Below, piece after piece: positions 11 through 64,000 of a stretch of DNA of 64,000 bases. The number at the start of each line of letters is the position of its first letter. Positions within the stretch are counted from its first letter, which is position 1. Position numbers and translations under genes: made by a program. A model generated the notes under the pieces. It did no database searches. It saw only the letters and a list, made by a program, of their open reading frames with translations, and had not been told where the DNA came from. Origin of the DNA: Thermoplasmata archaeon (GTDB lineage: Archaea > Thermoplasmatota > Thermoplasmata > GCA-020350865). The stretch spans positions 532,903 through 596,902 of the forward strand of contig CP070751.1 of assembly GCA_020348445.1 (NCBI GenBank), read 5' to 3'.

Positions 11-3000
11 TTGGCATCAGGAACCACAGATTGGTCTTTCGAATGGGACACCCGCTTATTTTCTGATGGGGATCATACAATATATGTTAGGGGAGTCAAC
101 GGAACAATGTATTCGAAAGTCAAGTCAGTTGAGGTATCGCTTGATAACACCCCCCCGACAACCTCGATTATTGTAGGAGATCCAAAATACCTAAACGGCT
201 CCCAATTGTTCGTCTCTGATTTGACTCAATTCAATTTAAATGCCGCAGACAGCGGAAGCGGATTATTTTATACACGATATCGGATAGTTTACGAGGGAAA
301 CGAGGTTGTGGGTTGGACAATTGGCAATTCATTTACACTTTCGTGGGGTGAGGGCTACTATACGATCCAATACGACAGTGAAGACATGTTAGGAAACAAA
401 GAGGCTACCAATACAACCTTCGCGTATGTGGATTCATCCTCTCCAAAAACCAGTTTACAGATTGGAATGCCAAAATACCGCGACTACTCTTTTCATGTAT
501 TGAATGTTACTAACTCTACACCTTTTACCATATTGCTTTTGGAGGAGGCAAGCTCAGTGGATTTTTTCTGGTACACTATCGATGGGGCATATTTTTTGGG
601 TCAGACCTTTGATTTGACAGGTTTTCTTGACGGTATTCATATAATTACTTGGGGGAGCCAGGATGTCTTCGGCTTTAATGAATCTGGCAATGAAATCAAT
701 GTGACTCTGGATTCAACAGCCCCCGATACATTCTTGGATATTGGTCCTTTAAAATTCCGCGAATTTTCATTTGACTTGTGGAATGTCACATCAGCTACGC
801 AATTCTCCCTTAGCGCGAGCGATACTCATGTTGGCATTAACTTCACATGGTACACCATTGATGGAATCTTTTTTATGGGGGATGAATTTAACCTTACAGG
901 CTTCCTGGGTGGCCTGCATACTATATGCTGGGGTAGCGAGGACCATTTTGGCAATAACGAAACTGACAAATCAAAGGATGTAATTCTTGATTCCGGGCCC
1001 CCGAATACCATAATAGATGTGGGCCTGTCCAAGTTCCGTGGTTCTTCATTTGACTCCTGGAATGTTACTCCATCCACAAAATTTACCCTGAGCTCAATTG
1101 ACGATGCAGCAGGTGTCGATTTCACATGGTATACCATCGATGGAGTCTATTTTGAGGGTACGAGCTTTACAATGGATGGTTTAGACGATGGGCTACATAC
1201 AATAGCAATGGGAGCCATGGACAATTTAGGGAATAATAGATCCGAAGCCGCGATTACGGTTTACCTGGACTCCAGGTCACCTGAATCGAACCTCTCAATC
1301 GGTGAGCCAAAATATCACTTGTCCATAGACGACATCTGGAATGTAACAGAATCCACCTCCTTTTTATTGTCATCCTGGGATGAGCATGCAGGTGTGAAGA
1401 GCATATGGTTCAAGATTGATGGTGTTTACTTTGTAGGTTCTTTATTCAATCTCTCAGGTTATACGAACGGATTTTATACAATTGTCTGGGGTGCAATAGA
1501 TAACCTTGGACATAACGAGACTGGACATTCTACTACCGTATTTTTGGATACTGACTCTCCTTATACGGAACTCGCCATTGATGAGCCAAAACATCGGGAT
1601 AAAGACGGAGATATCTGGAATATATCGACATCCACCACATTTTCACTTTTATCTCTTGATAATCGCTCGGGTGTAAAATTCTCGTGGTTCACCATTAATG
1701 GAATGTATTTTGAAGGCACAGGCTTTAGTCTTTTTGGCTATCCAGAAGGTTATTACATCATCATCTGGGGAAGTGAGGACTTCCTTGGGAATAACGAGAC
1801 AGGAAAAACAGAAACAGTTTATTTAAGCTCAGCCATTCCAACCACCACGTTGGAGATGAATGGGGAAAGATATTGGGACTCGATTAATGATCTATGGATT
1901 GTTACAGATGAAACACTCTTTCTCTTGACACCCGAACCCACGCCTATAGGGATAAACTTCACCTGGTACATGATCGATTCTAATTATTTTGTTGGAGCTC
2001 AATTCTCGCTCTCCGGTATAGAGGAAGGAATTCACAGGATAAAATGGGGAAGTCAAGATACCATGGGTTTCAACGAAACTGAAAACTTCCAGTATGTGAT
2101 TCTGGATTTACAACCTCCAGAGACAAATTTAACCATGGGCAGCCCCAAATATCGAGAACCTGAAGAAGAGGTTTGGGCCGTTAGTAGAAACACTAAATTC
2201 ACAATTATATCCTCGGATAATCACTCTGGAGTATCCTCCATCTGGTACATGATAGATGACGATTTCTTTTTGGGCTCGAGCTTTACATTGGATGGATACG
2301 ATGACGGTCCACATAGGATAAGTTGGGGTGCAGTGGACAATCTCGGCTATAACGAGACAAAACGGGAAATGAATATCTTTATTGACAATGACGGTCCAAC
2401 AGTTACTTTTGAAATCGGGGAACCAAATATTCCCTACAACGATTATATTCTGATAAATTCTTCATCTGCCATATCTTTTAATGATGAGGATTCGGGTGTT
2501 GGTAATACCGTGATTTATTACTCTATTGACGGTGGCATAACATATCAGGTGTACGATTCGCCTTTCACGGTCCCCTACAAAACCATGAGGATCATTTACT
2601 GGGCTGAGGATATCCTGGGCAACAGGGCCAACGAATACGTAATCAACGTGAAGGTGGACAATACTGATACTGATTCTGATAAAATAGATGATATCGTCGA
2701 TACTGATGATGACGGGGACGGTTTACTTGACATCGAAGAAGATATAAATCAAAATGGAATCGTGGATCCTGAAGAGACGGATCCTAAGAACCCAGATACC
2801 GATTATGACGGATATTTGGATGGAGACGATCCTTATCCTTTGGATAAGAGTGACTGGGAAGGGGAACAAGAATCCGTTTCTGTATTCCTCATACTCATTA
2901 TCCTTGTGATTGTGGTATTTGCTATCCTCTTTATCTTCATCATGATCATGGATAGGGACAGCATGGCAAAAACCCAATGGACTTTCCCTGCCCACCCACA

Positions 3001-3364
3001 AGTTCCTGGTCAAGGGGGATATGAACGGACTGGCCAACAAGAGACAGGTGTTAATATCCAAAAAGAGCAGGCTGAGTCAATAGGTGAAGAGGAGATTGCA
3101 TTTGAACCCCATGATGAGGAATCCTATGAAGAGGAGGTCGAGTTTGAGCCCCATGATGAACCGACTGAAGAGGAAGTCGAATTTGAGCCGCATGATGAAG
3201 AATCCTATGAAGAGGAGGTCGAGTTTGAACCACATGACGAACCGACTGAAGAGGAAGTTGAGTTTGAGCCCCACGATGAACCGGATGAGGAAGTTCAATT
3301 TGAACCGCATGATGAACTATCTGAAGGGGAGGGGGAAGAGGAGCCTCCACCTCCTGATGATTAA
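11..3364 (+). CDS. Large membrane-anchored surface protein (probably 5'-partial): about 9 Ig-like repeats, Ca-binding TSP3-like DxDxDG repeats, one TM helix, acidic repeat tail
   Basis: About 95-aa repeats of type DxxxPxTxLxIGxPKY...WNVT...WYxIDG...WGSxDxLGxNET. DTDSDKIDD/DTDDDGDG/DTDYDGYLD motifs. Hydrophobic VFLILIILVIVVFAILFIFIMI segment. Six FEPHDE repeats. The ORF begins at the window edge with TTG, so the true start may lie upstream. Confidence 0.8.
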   Translation: MASGTTDWSFEWDTRLFSDGDHTIYVRGVNGTMYSKVKSVEVSLDNTPPTTSIIVGDPKYLNGSQLFVSDLTQFNLNAADSGSGLFYTRYRIVYEGNEVVGWTIGNSFTLSWGEGYYTIQYDSEDMLGNKEATNTTFAYVDSSSPKTSLQIGMPKYRDYSFHVLNVTNSTPFTILLLEEASSVDFFWYTIDGAYFLGQTFDLTGFLDGIHIITWGSQDVFGFNESGNEINVTLDSTAPDTFLDIGPLKFREFSFDLWNVTSATQFSLSASDTHVGINFTWYTIDGIFFMGDEFNLTGFLGGLHTICWGSEDHFGNNETDKSKDVILDSGPPNTIIDVGLSKFRGSSFDSWNVTPSTKFTLSSIDDAAGVDFTWYTIDGVYFEGTSFTMDGLDDGLHTIAMGAMDNLGNNRSEAAITVYLDSRSPESNLSIGEPKYHLSIDDIWNVTESTSFLLSSWDEHAGVKSIWFKIDGVYFVGSLFNLSGYTNGFYTIVWGAIDNLGHNETGHSTTVFLDTDSPYTELAIDEPKHRDKDGDIWNISTSTTFSLLSLDNRSGVKFSWFTINGMYFEGTGFSLFGYPEGYYIIIWGSEDFLGNNETGKTETVYLSSAIPTTTLEMNGERYWDSINDLWIVTDETLFLLTPEPTPIGINFTWYMIDSNYFVGAQFSLSGIEEGIHRIKWGSQDTMGFNETENFQYVILDLQPPETNLTMGSPKYREPEEEVWAVSRNTKFTIISSDNHSGVSSIWYMIDDDFFLGSSFTLDGYDDGPHRISWGAVDNLGYNETKREMNIFIDNDGPTVTFEIGEPNIPYNDYILINSSSAISFNDEDSGVGNTVIYYSIDGGITYQVYDSPFTVPYKTMRIIYWAEDILGNRANEYVINVKVDNTDTDSDKIDDIVDTDDDGDGLLDIEEDINQNGIVDPEETDPKNPDTDYDGYLDGDDPYPLDKSDWEGEQESVSVFLILIILVIVVFAILFIFIMIMDRDSMAKTQWTFPAHPQVPGQGGYERTGQQETGVNIQKEQAESIGEEEIAFEPHDEESYEEEVEFEPHDEPTEEEVEFEPHDEESYEEEVEFEPHDEPTEEEVEFEPHDEPDEEVQFEPHDELSEGEGEEEPPPPDD
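3086..3316 (+). repeat. Coding tandem repeat, six copies of EE(E)xxFEPHDE with alternating ESY/PT spacers
   Basis: Read directly in DNA (units such as gaagaggaggtcgagtttgagccccatgatga) and in the translation. Confidence 0.9.
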
Positions 3365-3525
3365 GAATTTGAATCCATTATGCTCGTGATGAGAATATAA
3401 AGTTCAAGTCCCACAAGGAAAAGATCGGATTCGAGCTGGCCAAATAGATCATAAATTTTCTTATCTGCAACTTTTATTACCACGCAACACATACCCCAAC
3501 TCGACGATATGAGGTGGTTGGGAAT

Positions 3526-4410
3526 ATGATCACAGAAAATGTAGTGAAACAAGCTACTTTTGAGCTTTTAAGAAATGCCGTGACCGTTTTGCCAAGGGAT
3601 ATAAATGAGGCCCTTAAAAAAGCCTATGAAACTGAGGAGGAGGCCATACCCAAGATGCAACTTAAGAATATACTCGATAACATCGAACTGGCAAAAGCTG
3701 GTCCCCTCCCCATGTGCCAGGACACCGGCATCCATATTTTCTATGTGACATATGGGAAAGATATGATTATGAAAGTCGAGGAAGCGATAAAAGATGGCCT
3801 GAGGGAGGCCACAAAATCGGTTCCACTTCGACCAAATGCTGTACATCCTCTGACAAGGAACAATCCAGGGGATAACACGGGATTGAAAATGCCCTACATA
3901 AACTACCGTTTCTCGGATGAGGACTTCTTAGAAATCGCAGTGATGCCAAAAGGAGCAGGTTCTGAAAACATGAGCGCATTGAAGATGCTAACTCCATCTC
4001 AAGGTCTTGCCGGTATAAAGGAATTTGTTTTGAACACCATGGTAAATGCGGGGGGAAAACCCTGTCCTCCCACAATAATAGGAATGGGCATAGGAGGTTC
4101 TGCAGACATATCAATGAAGCTTGCCAAGGAAGCGCTCCTAAGACCTGTTAACGCACCTAACAAGGACCCCCAAATCGCAGAGCTGGAAAAGGACCTTTAT
4201 GAGGCCATAAATACCCTGGGAATTGGACCAATGGGCCTTGGTGGAAAGACCACTGTATTGGGTGTTAACATCGAATATGCATACTGCCATACAGCGAGCC
4301 TGCCAGTGGCTGTGAATATTCAGTGCTGGGCAGCGAGAAGGGCCACTGCAAGGATTCACAAAGATGGTTCAATTGAGCATATCACCCATCCCAAGGAGGG
4401 AGAAATATGA
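3526..4410 (+). CDS. Fe-S hydro-lyase (fumarate hydratase/tartrate dehydratase), alpha subunit
   Basis: PMCQDTG, KGAGSEN, KPCPP, GIGPMGLGG and HTASLPVAVNIQCWA motifs. Start placed at ATG 3526, downstream of the GAGGTG RBS at 3511. Confidence 0.92.
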   Translation: MITENVVKQATFELLRNAVTVLPRDINEALKKAYETEEEAIPKMQLKNILDNIELAKAGPLPMCQDTGIHIFYVTYGKDMIMKVEEAIKDGLREATKSVPLRPNAVHPLTRNNPGDNTGLKMPYINYRFSDEDFLEIAVMPKGAGSENMSALKMLTPSQGLAGIKEFVLNTMVNAGGKPCPPTIIGMGIGGSADISMKLAKEALLRPVNAPNKDPQIAELEKDLYEAINTLGIGPMGLGGKTTVLGVNIEYAYCHTASLPVAVNIQCWAARRATARIHKDGSIEHITHPKEGEI

Positions 4411-5009
4411 CTGAGTTTTCGTTGAGTACACCTTTGGATGAGGCAGCAATCAGGCAATTAAATATCGGGGATGTGGTTTATTTAAATGGAACGATTTTCA
4501 CAGGAAGAGATGAGGTACATATCCACGCATTGAAGTTACTCAATGAAGGTAAAGATATTCCCGTGGAATTAAAGGATGCTGCGCTTTTCCATTGTGGACC
4601 AATAATGCAAAAAGAACATGAGAAATGGCATCTTGTGGCTGCTGGGCCCACCACAAGCTCCCGTATGAACTCTTTGGAACCTGAATTTATATCAAAATTT
4701 GGTGTAAGGGCAATTATCGGTAAAGGTGGTATGTCGAAACCAACTTTGGATGTAATGGGAGATTTTGGATGTGTGTACCTGGCGATAACAGGAGGAGCAG
4801 CACTTCTTGCCGCCAAAGGCATAAAGAATGTATTAGGTGTGCATTGGCTTGATCTGGGTATGCCCGAGGCTCTTTGGGTTTTGGAGAGCCAAAATTTTGG
4901 ACCGTTGATCGTCGCCATGGATAGTCATGGAAAAAGCCTATACGAGAAGGTCAGAAGTGATACCGAGAGAAATATGGAGGATGTGAGAAAAATATTAAAA
5001 TTGGACTAA
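4407..5009 (+). CDS. Fe-S hydro-lyase (fumarate hydratase/tartrate dehydratase), beta subunit
   Basis: TGRDEVH, HCGP, GPTTSSRM, IIGKGG and MPEALW motifs. ATGA overlap with the alpha subunit. Confidence 0.92.
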   Translation: MTEFSLSTPLDEAAIRQLNIGDVVYLNGTIFTGRDEVHIHALKLLNEGKDIPVELKDAALFHCGPIMQKEHEKWHLVAAGPTTSSRMNSLEPEFISKFGVRAIIGKGGMSKPTLDVMGDFGCVYLAITGGAALLAAKGIKNVLGVHWLDLGMPEALWVLESQNFGPLIVAMDSHGKSLYEKVRSDTERNMEDVRKILKLD

Positions 5010-59149: not shown

Positions 59150-60208
59150 CTAAACATCCCAAAAGGGCACGATATCGCAGCATCCACAGGCATGACACAT
59201 GGTCTTGAAGGTGCCAGTGGAAAGGTTATGGTTCTCTAAAATCCTCTTTTGCTCTTGCGCCAGCCGAATCATCCTTTGCGGGAGAACGTTTTGGATTTCG
59301 TGTCCCAAAGCCTTTACTATCCTGGCGTGGTTGTAATCGTTGATTCTCAGAACACGAATCACGGCAACGACTCCCATCTCTGCGAAATGTTCGAGGCCCT
59401 CCAAAACATTTTCGTCGCTCTCCCCAAGACCGATTATTATGTTCGTCGTGACCTTCCCCCTTCCAAAAACTTTCACGGCGTGCTCCAGCATCTTCAATAT
59501 ATGATCATAATCAAGCTCAGGGCATAGTTTATCAAAAATGTTTTTGTCAAATGTCTCGATATTTATTTTTATCTCTGTAGCACCTGCATCATGAAGTCTT
59601 TCTATGTCCTCTGGTTTCATAACATATGGCTCTACGCCGACCTCCACATCTCCAAGGTTCTTTTTCACCTTCCTAACAACTTCTAAAATATCATCAAAGG
59701 TTTCCTTTGGTGATTCTACAATCCCGCTTGTTATGGCCACAGACTGAAAATCACCATCCTCTGCCGCCTTTAAAATCATCCTCACGATCTGATCTGGATC
59801 CTTTTCCTTCTGACTCTCGAGCATCGGAGTGGCACAGAACTCGCAGTTGTAAATGCAGCTATCCTGAAGATTGACAAAGGCCTGGTTCGGCGCATGAAGA
59901 AGTGTGGGTATGATTTTTACACCATCAACAAAGACAGTCCCGCTCTTTAGGATTTGATATTCCTCTCCATTTTTTCTAAGGGAGAATTTCGAATCTTTCT
60001 CCTTTGTTACACCCAACTTCAACCTCGTGCCTCCAAAGGATAAGGCCAGGGCTTTTTTTCCAGCTCCTGGTCCTGCAGTTGAACTGCTTAAGGGATATGG
60101 TAATTTTATGGAATCGGGCACGAAAATCTTGCCGTGATGAATAAGCTCGGCCTTCTTTTTCGTAATTTCCGATATAAAGTTCGAATCTTCACTTCTCATA
60201 CAGTTCAC
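59150..60208 (-). CDS. Archaeal radical SAM protein of unknown function
   Basis: CIYNCEFC, AITSG, INIET and NIIIGLGE motifs. N-terminal STAGPGAG and C-terminal CHACGCC. Confidence 0.88.
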   Translation of the reverse strand: MNCMRSEDSNFISEITKKKAELIHHGKIFVPDSIKLPYPLSSSTAGPGAGKKALALSFGGTRLKLGVTKEKDSKFSLRKNGEEYQILKSGTVFVDGVKIIPTLLHAPNQAFVNLQDSCIYNCEFCATPMLESQKEKDPDQIVRMILKAAEDGDFQSVAITSGIVESPKETFDDILEVVRKVKKNLGDVEVGVEPYVMKPEDIERLHDAGATEIKINIETFDKNIFDKLCPELDYDHILKMLEHAVKVFGRGKVTTNIIIGLGESDENVLEGLEHFAEMGVVAVIRVLRINDYNHARIVKALGHEIQNVLPQRMIRLAQEQKRILENHNLSTGTFKTMCHACGCCDIVPFWDV

Positions 60209-61166
60209 TTCTGATTCTTGGGATTATTGCCATGAGAACAGCCTGCTCAGTTAGTCTTGTTCTGTCGAAAAGGTCCTTGGAGAGGTACCCTATGGCCCCC
60301 TTCTTCTTTCCCACATCCTTGATTTTAAATTTCTCTTCTATACCCTGGCTTATTGTTCTTCCCTGTTTCACTAGATCAATTAAAATGGAAGGATAGTAAA
60401 ATCCTGAGCCGTGACCAATGGTCGTTCTCTTTGCCCTGTCAATTACAGCGCAGTACTGCACATCAAAATATTTATCAGCCACATCGTTGTAAAAAAGCCC
60501 TGCCTCGATACCAACTCCGAAATCACATTCTTGGGAAAGAGCAGATTTTGCCCTTTCTATGGCGCCTTCAATGACCTCTTTTTCCATTGGTTGCTCGGGC
60601 ACGCTTTTCTTGACATCTGTTCCCTTTACTTGAACTCGTCTAAAAAGCTTGGAGAAAACATTGTTCACTGCATTTATCTTGACGTGATTCTCAGAACCCA
60701 CGCAAACAACAACCTTCCTCATCATCTTTCCATTTACGTCCATCTCTCCGCGTTTGATCCTGGTTGCCGAGATCACGTCCCCGTTTTCTGCCAGTGCTAA
60801 TTCCACAATGAGTATTTCGAGAGGTTCCAGCCCGTTTTTTTGGCGCTCTAAATTGATGTCCTCTGCACCTGACACTGTATCCTTTGAAACCACAATGGCA
60901 TCAAAATCCTTTTTTGTCGCAGGACCAAGCTCATCCTCCAATTTCGTTATTTCGTATCTTCCACCCCAGTCTTTCCCGTTTAAATAAGACTGGAGGTTCT
61001 TCTTCCGAATCTCATAGCTGTCTATTTCAACGTCTTTTTGTCCTCTTACAAGTTCATCGGAGGTAAGGCCAATTGCGACCTGATTGCCGTCCTCAAAGGC
61101 CTTTTTAAATAGCTGCTCGTGGCCCTTGTGGAGGATGTTGAATGTGCCGCCAAGGCAAACCTTCAT
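60189..61166 (-). CDS. coaD: Phosphopantetheine adenylyltransferase fused to a YjjX-like inosine/xanthosine triphosphatase
   Basis: GGTFNILHKGH, GLTSD, IVVSKDT and ISATRI, followed by VGSENHVKI, EQP, GIEAG and GAIGYLS...RTRL. Confidence 0.92.
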   Translation of the reverse strand: MKVCLGGTFNILHKGHEQLFKKAFEDGNQVAIGLTSDELVRGQKDVEIDSYEIRKKNLQSYLNGKDWGGRYEITKLEDELGPATKKDFDAIVVSKDTVSGAEDINLERQKNGLEPLEILIVELALAENGDVISATRIKRGEMDVNGKMMRKVVVCVGSENHVKINAVNNVFSKLFRRVQVKGTDVKKSVPEQPMEKEVIEGAIERAKSALSQECDFGVGIEAGLFYNDVADKYFDVQYCAVIDRAKRTTIGHGSGFYYPSILIDLVKQGRTISQGIEEKFKIKDVGKKKGAIGYLSKDLFDRTRLTEQAVLMAIIPRIRSELYEK

Positions 61167-61195
61167 TTCCTCTCCCTCTTAAAATAAATTCATCT

Positions 61196-61393
61196 TCAAA
61201 AGGCTGACATCAGAATCATGGCGAAAATTATGAACACGACCATCCAGAGAATCGTAATCCAGAACTTCTTCTTGTTGGCCTTGATGAGCTGGTTCCATTT
61301 CTCGTTGCATTCCTCGTTGCAGAACTCCTCACCCACAGGTATGGCCTTCTCACAAACCCTGCAGTGGCGGTGCTGAATCAATTTCTCAGCCAT
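61196..61393 (-). CDS. DUF2116 family Zn-ribbon membrane protein
   Basis: QHRHCRVCEKAIP...FCNEEC followed by a TM helix. AAGGAG RBS before ATG 61393. Confidence 0.85.
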   Translation of the reverse strand: MAEKLIQHRHCRVCEKAIPVGEEFCNEECNEKWNQLIKANKKKFWITILWMVVFIIFAMILMSAF

Positions 61394-61420
61394 ATTTTTC
61401 TGTCTCCTTGAATTCAAACC

Positions 61421-62014
61421 CTATTTTCTTTTTCGATATTTAAGGTTTGGCTTTGGGCTATTTCTGGAAGCCATCTCAAAATCCCTCTTTACAAGTTGCC
61501 TGTCGGATTCTATAAAACGATTATCCTCTTCTGAATCTATCTGTAACACTGACACTTGGTAAGCCACCGAAAGACTAAAAACCTCTTTTAACGAGTGCCA
61601 GATTTTGCATAATTCCTCGAAAGACATATGATGGGGGGTGATTCTAATCTTTTCTTGAGAATCCTTTGATTTTTGTTTTGAATATTTTTTCTCTGACCCA
61701 TAAGCTGTATCAAGGTTTATTATCGAATTATCATGAAAAACACGCATAGCATCCCCTAGCAATGCCTGTTTTTGGGTTTCTTCTTTATCAAATGGAGTCA
61801 CAAGGTAATACAGGTCCAACCATAACTTAGATTCATCATTTTTCAGGTGCTTATTCTCCATTACCTGGAATAGAAAAAGATTGATCTGGTTTCTATTATT
61901 TGATGCATTTTCGGGATAACCTATTGTAGCTATAACATTTTCAGTTTTCATTTGGGATTCCAGCAGTTTTTTCAAGGTAATACTGGTTTTGGCAATTGCC
62001 TCATAATTTCCCAT
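61421..62014 (-). CDS. DUF4255 / Pvc16-like tail-terminator protein of contractile injection systems
   Basis: AIAKTSITLKKLL, QINLFLFQVMEN, LDLYYLVT, LLGDAMRVFHD, ELCKIWHSL and SVAYQVSV motifs. Confidence 0.82.
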   Translation of the reverse strand: MGNYEAIAKTSITLKKLLESQMKTENVIATIGYPENASNNRNQINLFLFQVMENKHLKNDESKLWLDLYYLVTPFDKEETQKQALLGDAMRVFHDNSIINLDTAYGSEKKYSKQKSKDSQEKIRITPHHMSFEELCKIWHSLKEVFSLSVAYQVSVLQIDSEEDNRFIESDRQLVKRDFEMASRNSPKPNLKYRKRK

Positions 62015-62075
62015 TCGTTTTCACCTTCTTTTTATTATGAATATTATTTATAATATATAACTTACCAGGAGTGCT

Positions 62076-62576
62076 TTAGCTCTCTGTTGGTTCCTGGACA
62101 CCTTCATCACGTTCCCAACCTTCATTTTCCAATGTTATTCTTTCAATGGCTACGATGTTCTCCCCGGCATTTAATTCAGGCAATGCCTGGTACTCTGAAA
62201 TCCAACATCGGAAAACGTTGTATGCGATAACCGTAGTACCTTGCTCGTTTAACAGCTCGATTGTGATATTCTTACGGAAATTCTTAAGCGACATCAATGA
62301 ATCCCCTTTGAAGTTGTGAACCATATTTGCCCATTTCTCAAACTCAGGATCATGGGTTACTCCTCTTTCCAAGGTAATAGGGTGGTATACAGTCTGTCCA
62401 GGTGATTTTCTAACTGTACTTGGATCTCCACCTTCCCTATGGGTGATAACCTCTGTAGTGCGCATAAGGCCGCTTACCTTGGATATCCCAGCAACATACT
62501 TTCCGTCCCATCTTACCTTGAACTTAAAGTTCTTGTATGGGTCAAATCTTTCAGTATTCACATTAAACTGTGCCAT
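62076..62576 (-). CDS. T4 gp19-like / Afp1-Pvc1-like tail tube protein
   Basis: RFDPYKNFKFKVRWDG.YVAGISKVSGL..TTEV..HREGGD, ITLERGVT, FRKNITIELLNEQG, CWISEYQALP.LNA and IE.ITLENEGWERD. GGAGGT RBS. Confidence 0.93.
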   Translation of the reverse strand: MAQFNVNTERFDPYKNFKFKVRWDGKYVAGISKVSGLMRTTEVITHREGGDPSTVRKSPGQTVYHPITLERGVTHDPEFEKWANMVHNFKGDSLMSLKNFRKNITIELLNEQGTTVIAYNVFRCWISEYQALPELNAGENIVAIERITLENEGWERDEGVQEPTES

Positions 62577-62750
62577 TCTCTTACCTCCTTTTTTCCCTCA
62601 AATCTTGACTTTTTTTATTCTCCAAGTTCCATAATGGCCTAGGTGGATTTGGAATATGATGCACAAAATTCTTTACTATTTTTGTTTATCACAATTCCCC
62701 CTTTCGCCTATCCGAAATCAAATTATAATACTAATATTTTTTCGCATGAT

Positions 62751-63470
62751 TCAAATGAAAAACGGCACCCTCTCCTTGTATTCCCGATACTCATCAATTT
62801 CTGATAACTCAGTCTCCTCCTTCTTGCTGACCCGAACGTATACAAAGACCAGTATGGGTGCAAATACCAGGGTCAAAATAGTGGGCCAGCCAACAAGCCA
62901 CCCTACAACTATCAGAATAAATCCGAAGTATTGCGGATGCCTTGAATAGGAATAGATGCCCCTTGTCACAATTTTATCGCTTTCCACATTCTTATAGAGG
63001 GTTACCCACCCGATAATGATGAGGACCATCCCTATCACCATCAATACCGTTGCGTATACCATGGCCGCGGTCATACCTATATTGACTCCGAGAAATTTGA
63101 AATTGAATATCGTGTTGGGTAGCTCCACCGATGATCCAGGAATGTATTTTGAGGCAAAAAAAACAGTTAATGGAATCCCGTACATCTCAAAAAACAGAGA
63201 CACGAAAAAGGCAGTGACGATTCCGTATTCTTTCCAGTTCATCCTTCTCCGAAATGACAAGGGAACCAAAAAAGAGAGGAACAACACTATGTTTAAAATC
63301 ACGATATGCCACTGGTTGGTTATGGTATGAGAAAGCAAGGTGCCTGTAAAATGAGCATGGGAGTGGGCATAGAAATCCACAATAAAAATAAATGGAATTA
63401 TGATTAAGATAACGAACATCATCCGATACCAAAAGTTCCTGTGTTTTACAAATTCCATTAGCTTTCGCAT
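62751..63470 (-). CDS. Isoprenylcysteine carboxylmethyltransferase-like membrane protein
   Basis: Multiple TM helices, FFEMYGIPLT, GIYSYSRHPQYFG, EE..L and Y.EYKERVP.F motifs. Confidence 0.85.
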   Translation of the reverse strand: MRKLMEFVKHRNFWYRMMFVILIIIPFIFIVDFYAHSHAHFTGTLLSHTITNQWHIVILNIVLFLSFLVPLSFRRRMNWKEYGIVTAFFVSLFFEMYGIPLTVFFASKYIPGSSVELPNTIFNFKFLGVNIGMTAAMVYATVLMVIGMVLIIIGWVTLYKNVESDKIVTRGIYSYSRHPQYFGFILIVVGWLVGWPTILTLVFAPILVFVYVRVSKKEETELSEIDEYREYKERVPFFI

Positions 63471-63630: not shown

Positions 63631-63999
63631 CTATAGTCCAGTAAGGTCGACTTCCACATTTGCCATGTCGCAACCGCTTTGTAAGTGTAGCTCTGTTGAT
63701 GGATAGGGCTCGCCAATATCATCATCATTGACGACGATGCAGCAGTAGTAGTAGTAGGCATCACTGAATATATGGCTGATAGAGTCGGTTACGTGTATCT
63801 GGTTCAAATCTGGGCTTCTTTCGTCGTTGGGATCGTACTCGAACCACGGATCCGCGTCATCACCTAGTTGGGTGAACATCAACTCGGCATCCTGGGTGTA
63901 ACCCTCAATGGGATCGTCTTGTGCGATATTGGCGTAGAGGTGTACTCCGTGCGGTGTTGTGTCTCCGTAGTTGTAGATGAAGGCCAGATCGTCGCTTCC
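63631..63999 (-). CDS. 3' end of an unknown CDS running off the window edge
   Basis: The frame is open from 63999 (GSDDLAFIYNYGDTTPHGVHLYANIAQDDPIEGYTQDAELMFTQ...) to the stop at 63631. Acidic and beta-rich-looking. Confidence 0.65.
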   Translation of the reverse strand, partial: GSDDLAFIYNYGDTTPHGVHLYANIAQDDPIEGYTQDAELMFTQLGDDADPWFEYDPNDERSPDLNQIHVTDSISHIFSDAYYYYCCIVVNDDDIGEPYPSTELHLQSGCDMANVEVDLTGL

Positions 64000-64000
64000 T

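What the first reader, a model, noticed from the sequence alone, without database searches (positions are those of the whole stretch)
61421..62576. Two-gene 'tube + cap' cassette from a contractile injection system, with no sheath, baseplate or spike
Seen: an intact, highly canonical eCIS-type tube gene with a strong RBS, followed by an intact short DUF4255/Pvc16-like gene. They are flanked by an ICMT-like gene and the housekeeping DUF2116-coaD operon (27 nt from the DUF4255 stop to the next ATG). No sheath, VgrG/PAAR, gp25, baseplate J, ATPase, capsid, terminase or integrase occurs in the window. Established: in Afp/PVC-type eCIS these genes sit in large clusters, and Pvc16 caps the tube/sheath. 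Inference: a domesticated, sheath-less tube whose length or end is controlled by the cap (cytoplasmic filament, nanotube or storage conduit), or an eCIS dispersed around the chromosome. Either would be new for this lineage. No frameshifts are visible, which argues against simple decay.
Basis: partly seen in the sequence, partly recalled or inferred. Interest (0 to 1): 0.75.

Follow-up and report, generated by a model that had tools for sequence, protein, structure and literature searches.

The report
Orphan injection-system tube and cap genes
An archaeon carries only two pieces of a phage-tail-like injection machine, the inner tube and a shortened tube cap, as a small acquired insert between housekeeping genes; the same two-gene remnant survives intact in two other archaeal-type contigs, so it is probably kept for some use other than injection.

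Summary
On the minus strand lie an intact CIS inner-tube gene (62076-62576) and an intact Pvc16_N/DUF4255 cap gene (61421-62014).

The 5.16-Mb MAG (82% complete, about 350 contigs) has no sheath, gp25, baseplate J, VgrG, T4_baseplate or CIS_tube gene. The window ends at a contig end 1.4 kb beyond the tube gene.

The pair is not a lineage-wide domestication. It is a 1.33-kb accessory insert at a variable ICMT|DUF2116 junction. That junction is empty in two same-genus genomes and holds a toxin-antitoxin cassette in a third.

Both genes come from one eCIS lineage. Its usual order is sheath, tube, T4_baseplate-like, X, long cap (395-622 aa, with TIG), AAA ATPase. Our cap keeps only about the first 167 residues, and its last 11 codons read into the host DUF2116 promoter.

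The same tube + ~180-aa cap pair occurs on two other metagenome lineages in different contexts. The three short caps form one clade (support 93/85). Their codon-position divergence and a neutral simulation indicate purifying selection.

Best reading: a rare, mobile, sheath-less tube+cap remnant retained for an unknown, non-injecting role.

The parts
62076..62576 (-). CIS inner-tube gene (166 aa), full length. It aligns without gaps to tubes of canonical eCIS operons.
   Evidence: PF06841 151 bits; TIGR02241. 75-81% identical over 166/166 residues to tubes in sheath-bearing operons. Matches PDB tubes of Anabaena tCIS and AlgoCIS at E 1e-16.
61421..62014 (-). Truncated cap / tail-terminator gene (197 aa): Pvc16_N domain only, plus a 30-aa tail.
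   Evidence: PF14065 109 bits. Residues 1-167 are 55% identical to residues 1-172 of a 594-aa cap. AF2 model pLDDT 84.6; top Foldseek hits are CIS caps 7b5i, 7adz, 9qgn, 6j0f, 9gts, 6rap. Profile hits to Pvc16 and Afp16.
61432..61455 (-). Host promoter-like motif CAAAGCCAAACCTTAAATATCGAA of the DUF2116-coaD operon. It is read as the last codons of the cap ORF (PKPNLKYRKRK*) and marks the right junction of the insert.
   Evidence: The same motif lies upstream of DUF2116 at the empty sites of G001 and G003, and after the TA cassette of G004.
62577..62750 (-). 174-bp spacer between the ICMT stop and the tube start, with AAGGAGGT at 62583-62590. The left junction of the insert lies somewhere in here.
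   Evidence: Sequence. No similarity to the empty sites and no remnant of a sheath gene.
62015..62075 (-). 61-bp AT-rich spacer between tube and cap, with GAAGGTGA before the cap ATG.
   Evidence: Sequence. In canonical relatives two genes (1.2-3.2 kb) lie here instead.
62751..63470 (-). Resident ICMT-like membrane methyltransferase gene (left flank).
   Evidence: PF04140. 69-73% identical orthologues next to DUF2116 in G001, G003 and G004.
60189..61393 (-). Resident DUF2116 gene (61196-61393) and PPAT-type cytidylyltransferase + NTPase_I-T fusion gene (60189-61166) (right flank).
   Evidence: PF09889, PF01467, PF01931. Syntenic in four same-genus genomes.

Best explanation
The locus is a 1.33-kb, horizontally acquired, two-gene remnant of an extracellular contractile injection system (eCIS). 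It holds the inner-tube gene and the tube-binding N-terminal domain of the cap.

Shown: the genome as assembled has no other part of the machine, so the pair cannot build a contractile injector.

Shown: the pair belongs to a small clade of identical reduced pairs (three known) that sit in different chromosomal contexts and have stayed intact while diverging.

Inferred: the pair is kept by selection and moves as a unit.

Inferred mechanism: the tube protein forms hexameric rings or short stacks, and a cap hexamer closes one end, as the two proteins do in the parent machine. Without baseplate, tape measure or sheath, the product would be a static capped ring or short tube. Its role is not injection and is still unknown.
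For: Identity of the two genes.

No other CIS gene in the MAG.

Insertion: ICMT abuts DUF2116 with an 80-110 bp gap in G003 and G001. A UPF0175 + PIN-like cassette fills the same junction in G004. G002 has a different upstream neighbour. The host promoter motif is read as the end of the cap ORF.

Origin: the closest relatives of both genes lie in the same type of operon, ordered sheath, tube, T4_baseplate-like, X, Pvc16_N+TIG, AAA ATPase. In a survey of 80 more distant cap loci, 32 of 32 had the tube 1.2-3.2 kb upstream and never adjacent, 45 of 45 had the ATPase downstream, and 24 of 24 well-flanked loci had a sheath.

Recurrence: tube + 179-aa cap lies between HypC and PolD-DP2 on a JGI contig. 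The same pair lies before a NosD-type giant gene on ENA/NCBI contigs.

Common descent: the three short caps form one clade (93/85) inside a 100/98 clade with the long forms.

Selection: cap differences by codon position are 0.43 / 0.31 / 0.60. Fewer than 0.1% of neutral replicates keep the frame open at half the observed distance. Tube dN is 0.12-0.13 with saturated dS. P0131 and P0275 are 76% identical.
Against: The MAG is only 82% complete and fragmented, and the contig ends 1.4 kb from the tube gene. Missing parts therefore cannot be strictly excluded.

Support for the short-cap clade is moderate (93/85, not starred), and one subclade sits on a long stem.

The tube tree does not resolve the three pairs as a clade.

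Another eCIS lineage has tube and short cap adjacent inside a complete cluster. Adjacency alone therefore does not prove an internal deletion.

Only three instances are known. Nothing shows expression or interaction. Other reduced fragments of the same tube lineage exist: a tube-T4_baseplate-CIS_tube trio, and a tube alone. These fit a decay series as well as they fit selection. Small genes also survive decay longest.
Confidence: 0.6

Rival explanations
1. Neutral fossil. The pair is what is left after deletions whittled down an acquired eCIS fragment. The two ORFs are intact only because they are small, and they have no function.
For: The cap is truncated and its end reads into host promoter DNA, as a deletion stopped by an essential promoter would leave it. 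Other partial fragments of the same tube lineage exist. The pair is absent from congeners. The short caps evolve 1.5-3 times faster than the long ones.
Against: If the three pairs share a reduced ancestor, both ORFs stayed open over about 0.68 substitutions per site. Fewer than 0.1% of neutral replicates manage that even at half this distance. Third codon positions differ most and second positions least. The tube keeps 75-85% identity without a single indel. Ribosome-binding sites are kept before both genes.
Confidence: 0.2
2. Satellite or dispersed part. A complete eCIS lies in the unassembled 18% of the genome, and this pair supplies extra tube and cap subunits.
For: Completeness is 81.7%, there are about 350 contigs, and the contig ends 1.4 kb away. 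eCIS with long caps occur in one family of the same phylum.
Against: None of seven CIS families, and none of the canonical-cluster proteins, was found in 5.16 Mb. In all 24 well-flanked reference loci the parts are clustered within 12 kb. Both flanks of the pair are resident syntenic genes. The same lone pair occurs on two other contigs between unrelated genes.
Confidence: 0.08
3. Assembly poison or decoy. The pair acts as a small accessory defence cassette. Its tube and cap subunits interfere with the assembly of tails of infecting tailed viruses or of related CIS.
For: It sits at a junction that holds a toxin-antitoxin cassette in a sister genome, so the site is a slot for small accessory cassettes. 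It is patchy and apparently mobile. A cap without its outer part could end tube growth early (inference).
Against: No match in PADLOC. No defence genes next to it. No literature found. There is no evidence that local viruses use compatible tubes.
Confidence: 0.1

Closest known systems
eCIS operons of the sheath / tube / T4_baseplate-like / X / Pvc16_N+TIG cap / AAA ATPase type (metagenome loci L014, L034, L123)
   Same: The tube is 71-80% identical and co-linear. The cap N-domain is 50-55% identical. Both closest relatives sit in one operon type.
   Different: Here there is no sheath, no T4_baseplate-like gene, no ATPase, no spike and no baseplate. The tube and cap are adjacent. The cap lacks the TIG domain and C-terminal part.
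Solved CIS caps and tubes: Anabaena tCIS (7b5h/7b5i), AlgoCIS (7adz), PVC (6j0f), Afp (6rap), Streptomyces CIS (9gts)
   Same: Same folds. The cap model matches 7b5i and 7adz best (Foldseek E about 1e-9). The tube matches All3324 and the AlgoCIS tube at E about 1e-16. In these machines the cap hexamer sits on the last tube ring (entry titles; established knowledge).
   Different: Those caps work in complete sheathed particles. Sequence identity to them is only 15-18% for the cap.
Reduced tube + 179-aa cap pairs on other contigs (P0002/P0275; L040-L042 with P0131)
   Same: Same two genes in the same order, with a short spacer. The cap ends at nearly the same residue. The caps form one clade.
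   Different: Different flanking genes: HypC and PolD-DP2 in one case, a NosD-type giant in the other. Cap identity to ours is 40-44%. The L040 pair is bracketed by a 90-nt direct repeat that ours lacks.
Orphan tube + shortened cap in an Acidimicrobiia bacterium
   Same: It is described as tube and shortened cap left among housekeeping genes and still under selection.
   Different: It is a bacterial host, and no sequence resemblance to our cap was found in the scan's index. I did not examine it myself.

Membership tests
Extracellular contractile injection system (Afp/PVC-type eCIS) | Inner tube protein (PF06841) | tested here: met
   151 bits; PDB tube matches.
Extracellular contractile injection system (Afp/PVC-type eCIS) | Contractile sheath (PF04984 / PF17482) | tested here: not met
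   No match in the 5.16-Mb MAG or by tblastn with three sheaths. The MAG is 82% complete.
Extracellular contractile injection system (Afp/PVC-type eCIS) | Baseplate and spike (gp25, Baseplate_J, VgrG/Phage_GPD) | tested here: not met
   No match.
Extracellular contractile injection system (Afp/PVC-type eCIS) | AAA ATPase next to the cap | tested here: not met
   The gene downstream is DUF2116. 45 of 45 reference loci have the ATPase within 3 kb. The only AAA hits in the genome lie far from this locus and are weak (23-37% identity).
Extracellular contractile injection system (Afp/PVC-type eCIS) | At least four linked core genes (criterion of Geller et al. 2021, PMC8213781) | tested here: not met
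   Only two core genes are linked here. The criterion was read.
CIS cap / tail terminator (Pvc16, Afp16, DUF4255) | Pvc16_N domain above the Pfam cut-off | tested here: met
   109 bits against a cut-off of 27.
CIS cap / tail terminator (Pvc16, Afp16, DUF4255) | Cap fold | tested here: met
   AF2 pLDDT 84.6. The six best Foldseek hits are CIS caps; phage terminators (T5 p142, T4 gp15) follow.
CIS cap / tail terminator (Pvc16, Afp16, DUF4255) | C-terminal part as in its closest relatives (TIG domain and beyond) | tested here: not met
   The alignment ends at residue 167. The tail is unique and its last 11 codons are host DNA.
CIS cap / tail terminator (Pvc16, Afp16, DUF4255) | Hexamer that binds the distal tube ring | not testable with these tools
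   Needs multimer modelling or biochemistry.

The most novel reading that the evidence does not exclude
Tube + N-domain cap is a self-sufficient, mobile two-gene module that has arisen from eCIS more than once, in archaea here and in an actinobacterial lineage according to an earlier scan note. It would build a closed, non-contractile ring or nanotube with a new cellular role, such as a cargo container or an inhibitor of viral tail assembly.
Probability: 0.2. Interest if true: 0.75.

Novelty: new variant of a known kind. Interest (0 to 1): 0.45.

Why it matters
Surveys of contractile injection systems only count loci with at least four linked core genes (PMC8213781). Two-gene remnants are therefore invisible to them. 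If a tube + cap pair is really maintained by selection without sheath or baseplate, then these two interacting parts have a use outside injection. That would parallel other phage-derived parts that were co-opted by cells. It would also offer a minimal self-assembling capped tube for study. If the pair is only a slowly decaying fossil, it still records transfer of eCIS DNA into this archaeal lineage, and it marks a small cassette slot next to an essential operon.

Tried and rejected
- The scan of genome contigs with the cap found no relative.
- The metagenome scan returned only distant cap loci (30-38% identity), all canonical. I used them as the baseline; none is a further example of the pair.
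- The DNA of the P0002 contig is not held, so no codon analysis of that pair was possible.
- Pairwise dN/dS failed because dS is saturated in every comparison with our genes.
- The tube tree is too poorly resolved to show that the three pair-borne tubes are one clade.
- A search for relics of sheath, T4_baseplate-like or cap C-terminal sequence in the two spacers gave only noise.
- No direct or inverted repeat brackets our insert.
- PADLOC gave nothing.
- Full-text searches found no paper on orphan tube-cap pairs.
- Single-sequence search of the cap against PDB found nothing; only the profile worked.
- The idea that the second tube gene of the genome marks a dispersed system was rejected. It belongs to a separate family with an N-terminal hydrophobic helix.
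- The region next to PolD-DP2 in our genome has no match to the pair and a differently arranged neighbour, so the P0002 contig does not look syntenic with ours there; the neighbours' families were not determined.

Full report
**What is there.** Both genes lie on the minus strand.
- The 166-aa product of 62076-62576 matches Phage_T4_gp19 (PF06841) at 151 bits and TIGR02241 at 151 bits. It also matches the solved inner tubes of the Anabaena thylakoid CIS and of AlgoCIS at E about 1e-16.
- The 197-aa product of 61421-62014 matches Pvc16_N (PF14065) at 109 bits. A profile of its relatives hits the solved caps Pvc16, Afp16, the AlgoCIS cap and All3327. An AlphaFold model (pLDDT 84.6) has CIS caps as its six best Foldseek matches, followed by phage tail terminators.
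- AAGGAGGT lies 6 nt before the tube ATG. The cap stop lies 27 nt before the DUF2116 ATG.
- The flanks are an ICMT-like gene on one side. On the other side are DUF2116, a PPAT-type cytidylyltransferase + NTPase_I-T fusion, and a radical SAM gene.

**State of the assembly.** The 'one-contig' genome of 5,156,303 bases is about 350 contigs joined by 100-N spacers. A spacer starts directly after window base 64000, so the contig ends 1.4 kb beyond the tube start. Completeness is 81.7%. The organism is an archaeon: it has PolD-DP2, which in the control set rings only in archaea.

**Is the rest of the machine elsewhere?** None was found.
- Family searches of the whole MAG found no Phage_sheath_1, Phage_sheath_1C, GPW_gp25, Baseplate_J, Phage_GPD, T4_baseplate or CIS_tube.
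- tblastn with every gene of three canonical clusters found only the tube, the cap N-domain, distant AAA ATPase matches far from this locus (23-37% identity), two weak matches to part of one cap's C-terminal region, and a second, distant tube gene at C1:474183-474707.
- That second tube gene stands alone between FG-GAP/PKD giant proteins. Its product starts with a hydrophobic helix. It is not a piece of a dispersed system.

**The pair is an accessory insert.**
- All four same-genus genomes have the DUF2116, coaD-fusion and radical SAM genes in the same order. None has a tube gene of this type: the tube protein finds nothing in them, and the PF06841 family gives only one match below its cut-off, in G003.
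- In G003 and G001 the ICMT gene abuts DUF2116, with 80-110 bp between them.
- In G004 the same junction holds a 1.29-kb UPF0175 + PIN-like toxin-antitoxin cassette.
- In G002 the upstream neighbour is a different membrane protein.
- All empty or differently filled sites keep the motif CAAAGCCAAACCTTAAATA(T/G)CGAA just upstream of DUF2116. It looks like the operon's BRE/TATA promoter (inference). In our window the same 24 bases (61432-61455) are read as the last codons of the cap ORF, PKPNLKYRKRK-stop. The right junction of the insert therefore lies inside the cap ORF.
- The left junction lies somewhere in the 174-bp spacer. That spacer resembles neither the empty sites nor any sheath gene.

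**Where it came from.** The tube is 75-81% identical, without any gap, to tubes on metagenome contigs. It is about 70% identical to tubes of several bacterial phyla.
- On the contigs that show a canonical cluster, the order is sheath, tube, T4_baseplate/DUF6760 protein, a 294-501-aa protein, a 478-594-aa cap made of Pvc16_N, TIG and more, then an AAA ATPase. Spike and baseplate genes follow further on.
- Our cap aligns over residues 1-167 with residues 1-172 of the cap in the same contig that holds an 80%-identical tube (55% identity).
- All five closest cap relatives carry the TIG domain. Four are 395-622 aa; the fifth is a 257-aa product of a 1.3-kb contig and is probably cut.
- As a baseline I classified 80 more distant cap loci from metagenomes. 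All 32 with enough upstream DNA have the tube 1.2-3.2 kb upstream, never adjacent. All 45 with enough downstream DNA have the ATPase. All 24 with at least 4 kb on both sides have the sheath.

Our locus departs from this baseline on every count.

**The same reduced pair elsewhere.** Three short caps are known in the protein collections searched: ours, P0131 and P0275.
- P0275 (179 aa) follows an 81%-identical tube (P0002) on a JGI contig, between HypC and the PolD-DP2 gene. That contig is therefore from an archaeon.
- P0131 (179 aa) follows a tube on ENA and NCBI contigs, ahead of a NosD/beta-helix giant gene. The apparent break in that tube is a 10-N scaffold gap.
- The L040 pair is bracketed by a 90-nt direct repeat (83% identity, 1504 bp apart) that includes a promoter-like stretch.
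- In trees of the N-domain, the short caps form one clade: 98/89 with two of them, 93/85 with all three. That clade sits inside a 100/98 clade with the long forms.
- The short caps end within a few residues of one another, at the start of the TIG domain, and share the stretch IE(S/A)D..LV just before the end.

The simplest reading is one reduction event, followed by spread of the two-gene unit to three different chromosomal sites.

**Selection.**
- Between our cap and P0131, nucleotide differences by codon position are 0.43, 0.31 and 0.60. This is the pattern of a constrained coding sequence.
- In a neutral simulation with substitutions only, 0.085% of replicates kept the frame open at half the observed distance of 0.68 per site.
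- P0131 and P0275 are 76% identical, close to the 82-85% of their tubes.
- Tube dN between the pairs is 0.12-0.13 with saturated dS.
- The short caps do evolve faster than the long ones, about 1.5-fold for ours, and there is a long stem before P0131/P0275. This points to altered or partly relaxed constraint.

These arguments depend on the shared reduced ancestry, which has moderate tree support. The tube tree cannot confirm it.

**Points that temper the reading.**
A short cap is therefore not in itself a sheath-less adaptation.
- In another eCIS lineage, a tube gene is directly followed by a 191-aa cap inside a full cluster. Adjacency alone is therefore not unusual across all eCIS.
- Other fragments of the same tube lineage exist: a tube-T4_baseplate-CIS_tube trio without sheath, and a tube alone beside a Fic gene. 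This looks like a decay series in which the tube is the last survivor.

**How it probably works.** In the parent machines the cap hexamer stacks on the last tube ring (titles of the solved entries; established knowledge of Afp and PVC). The two retained genes thus encode direct binding partners. Without baseplate, tube initiator, tape measure and sheath, there is no contraction and no controlled length. I infer a static product: tube hexamers or short stacks closed at one end by the cap. Its cellular role is unknown. Candidates are a small container or carrier, or a poison of foreign tail assembly. No tool result bears on this choice. PADLOC has no match, and I found no paper on such pairs.

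**Verdict.**
- The pair is not a lineage-wide domestication and not part of a dispersed system.
- It is a rare, acquired, sheath-less tube + cap remnant that appears to be maintained as a unit.
- I rate it a new variant of a known kind, of moderate interest.
I did not check it. If it is sound, the pattern recurs across domains.

Noticed in passing
outside the window: G000:C1:474183-474707 (L004:19184-19708, minus strand); also L025, L026, L027, L028, L024: A second lone tube-family gene (PF06841, 103 bits) lies between FG-GAP/PKD giant proteins. Its product starts with a hydrophobic helix followed by an 'AP' motif. Tube genes of five other genomes of the class (G249, G083, G075, G176, G106) have the same N-terminal helix. 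None of the five has a sheath or a cap gene. This looks like a family of exported or membrane-anchored tube-fold proteins.
   Followed up: partly
window 61394-61455 and 62577-62750; L033:1914-3150; L032:3088-3168; L030:8679-8805: The ICMT|DUF2116 junction is a slot for small cassettes within this genus. It is empty in G001 and G003, holds a UPF0175 + PIN-like toxin-antitoxin pair in G004, and holds the tube + cap pair here. In every case the insert lies just upstream of the conserved motif CAAAGCCAAACCTTAAATA.
   Followed up: yes
L040:998-1087 and 2502-2591: A 90-nt direct repeat (83% identity, 1504 bp apart) brackets the sister tube + cap pair. Each copy holds a promoter-like stretch, one before the tube gene and one before the NosD-type giant gene downstream.
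   Followed up: partly
window 62703-62715 and L040:2346-2358: An identical 13-mer, TTCGGATAGGCGA, lies upstream of our tube gene and downstream of the L040 cap gene (E 0.13 in a small search). It may be chance, or a shared end of the cassette.
   Followed up: no
L023:4723-6283 and 1716-4496 (G273): In another genome of the class, a close tube homologue (154 bits) is followed by a fusion of a weak CIS_tube match (21.5 bits, below cut-off) with TPR_12. Next comes a 926-aa STAND-type NTPase with TPR repeats. No sheath or cap gene was found in that genome.
   Followed up: partly
L013:10001-12001 and L038:1078-1695: Other sheath-less fragments of the same tube lineage exist: a tube-T4_baseplate/DUF6760-CIS_tube trio behind NosD/PKD giants, and a tube alone beside a Fic gene. 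The Fic protein of L013 is 70% identical to one in our genome (C1:3595296-3596144).
   Followed up: partly
whole genome G000; window base 64000: The genome offered as one contig is about 350 contigs joined by 100-N spacers, sorted by falling length in its first 2 Mb. Distances across spacers mean nothing. The window's last base is a contig end.
   Followed up: yes
window 63631-63999, minus strand: The C-terminal 122 residues of a gene cut by the contig end. There is no Pfam match. It is acidic and rich in Asp and Tyr, and may be the tail of a surface protein.
   Followed up: partly
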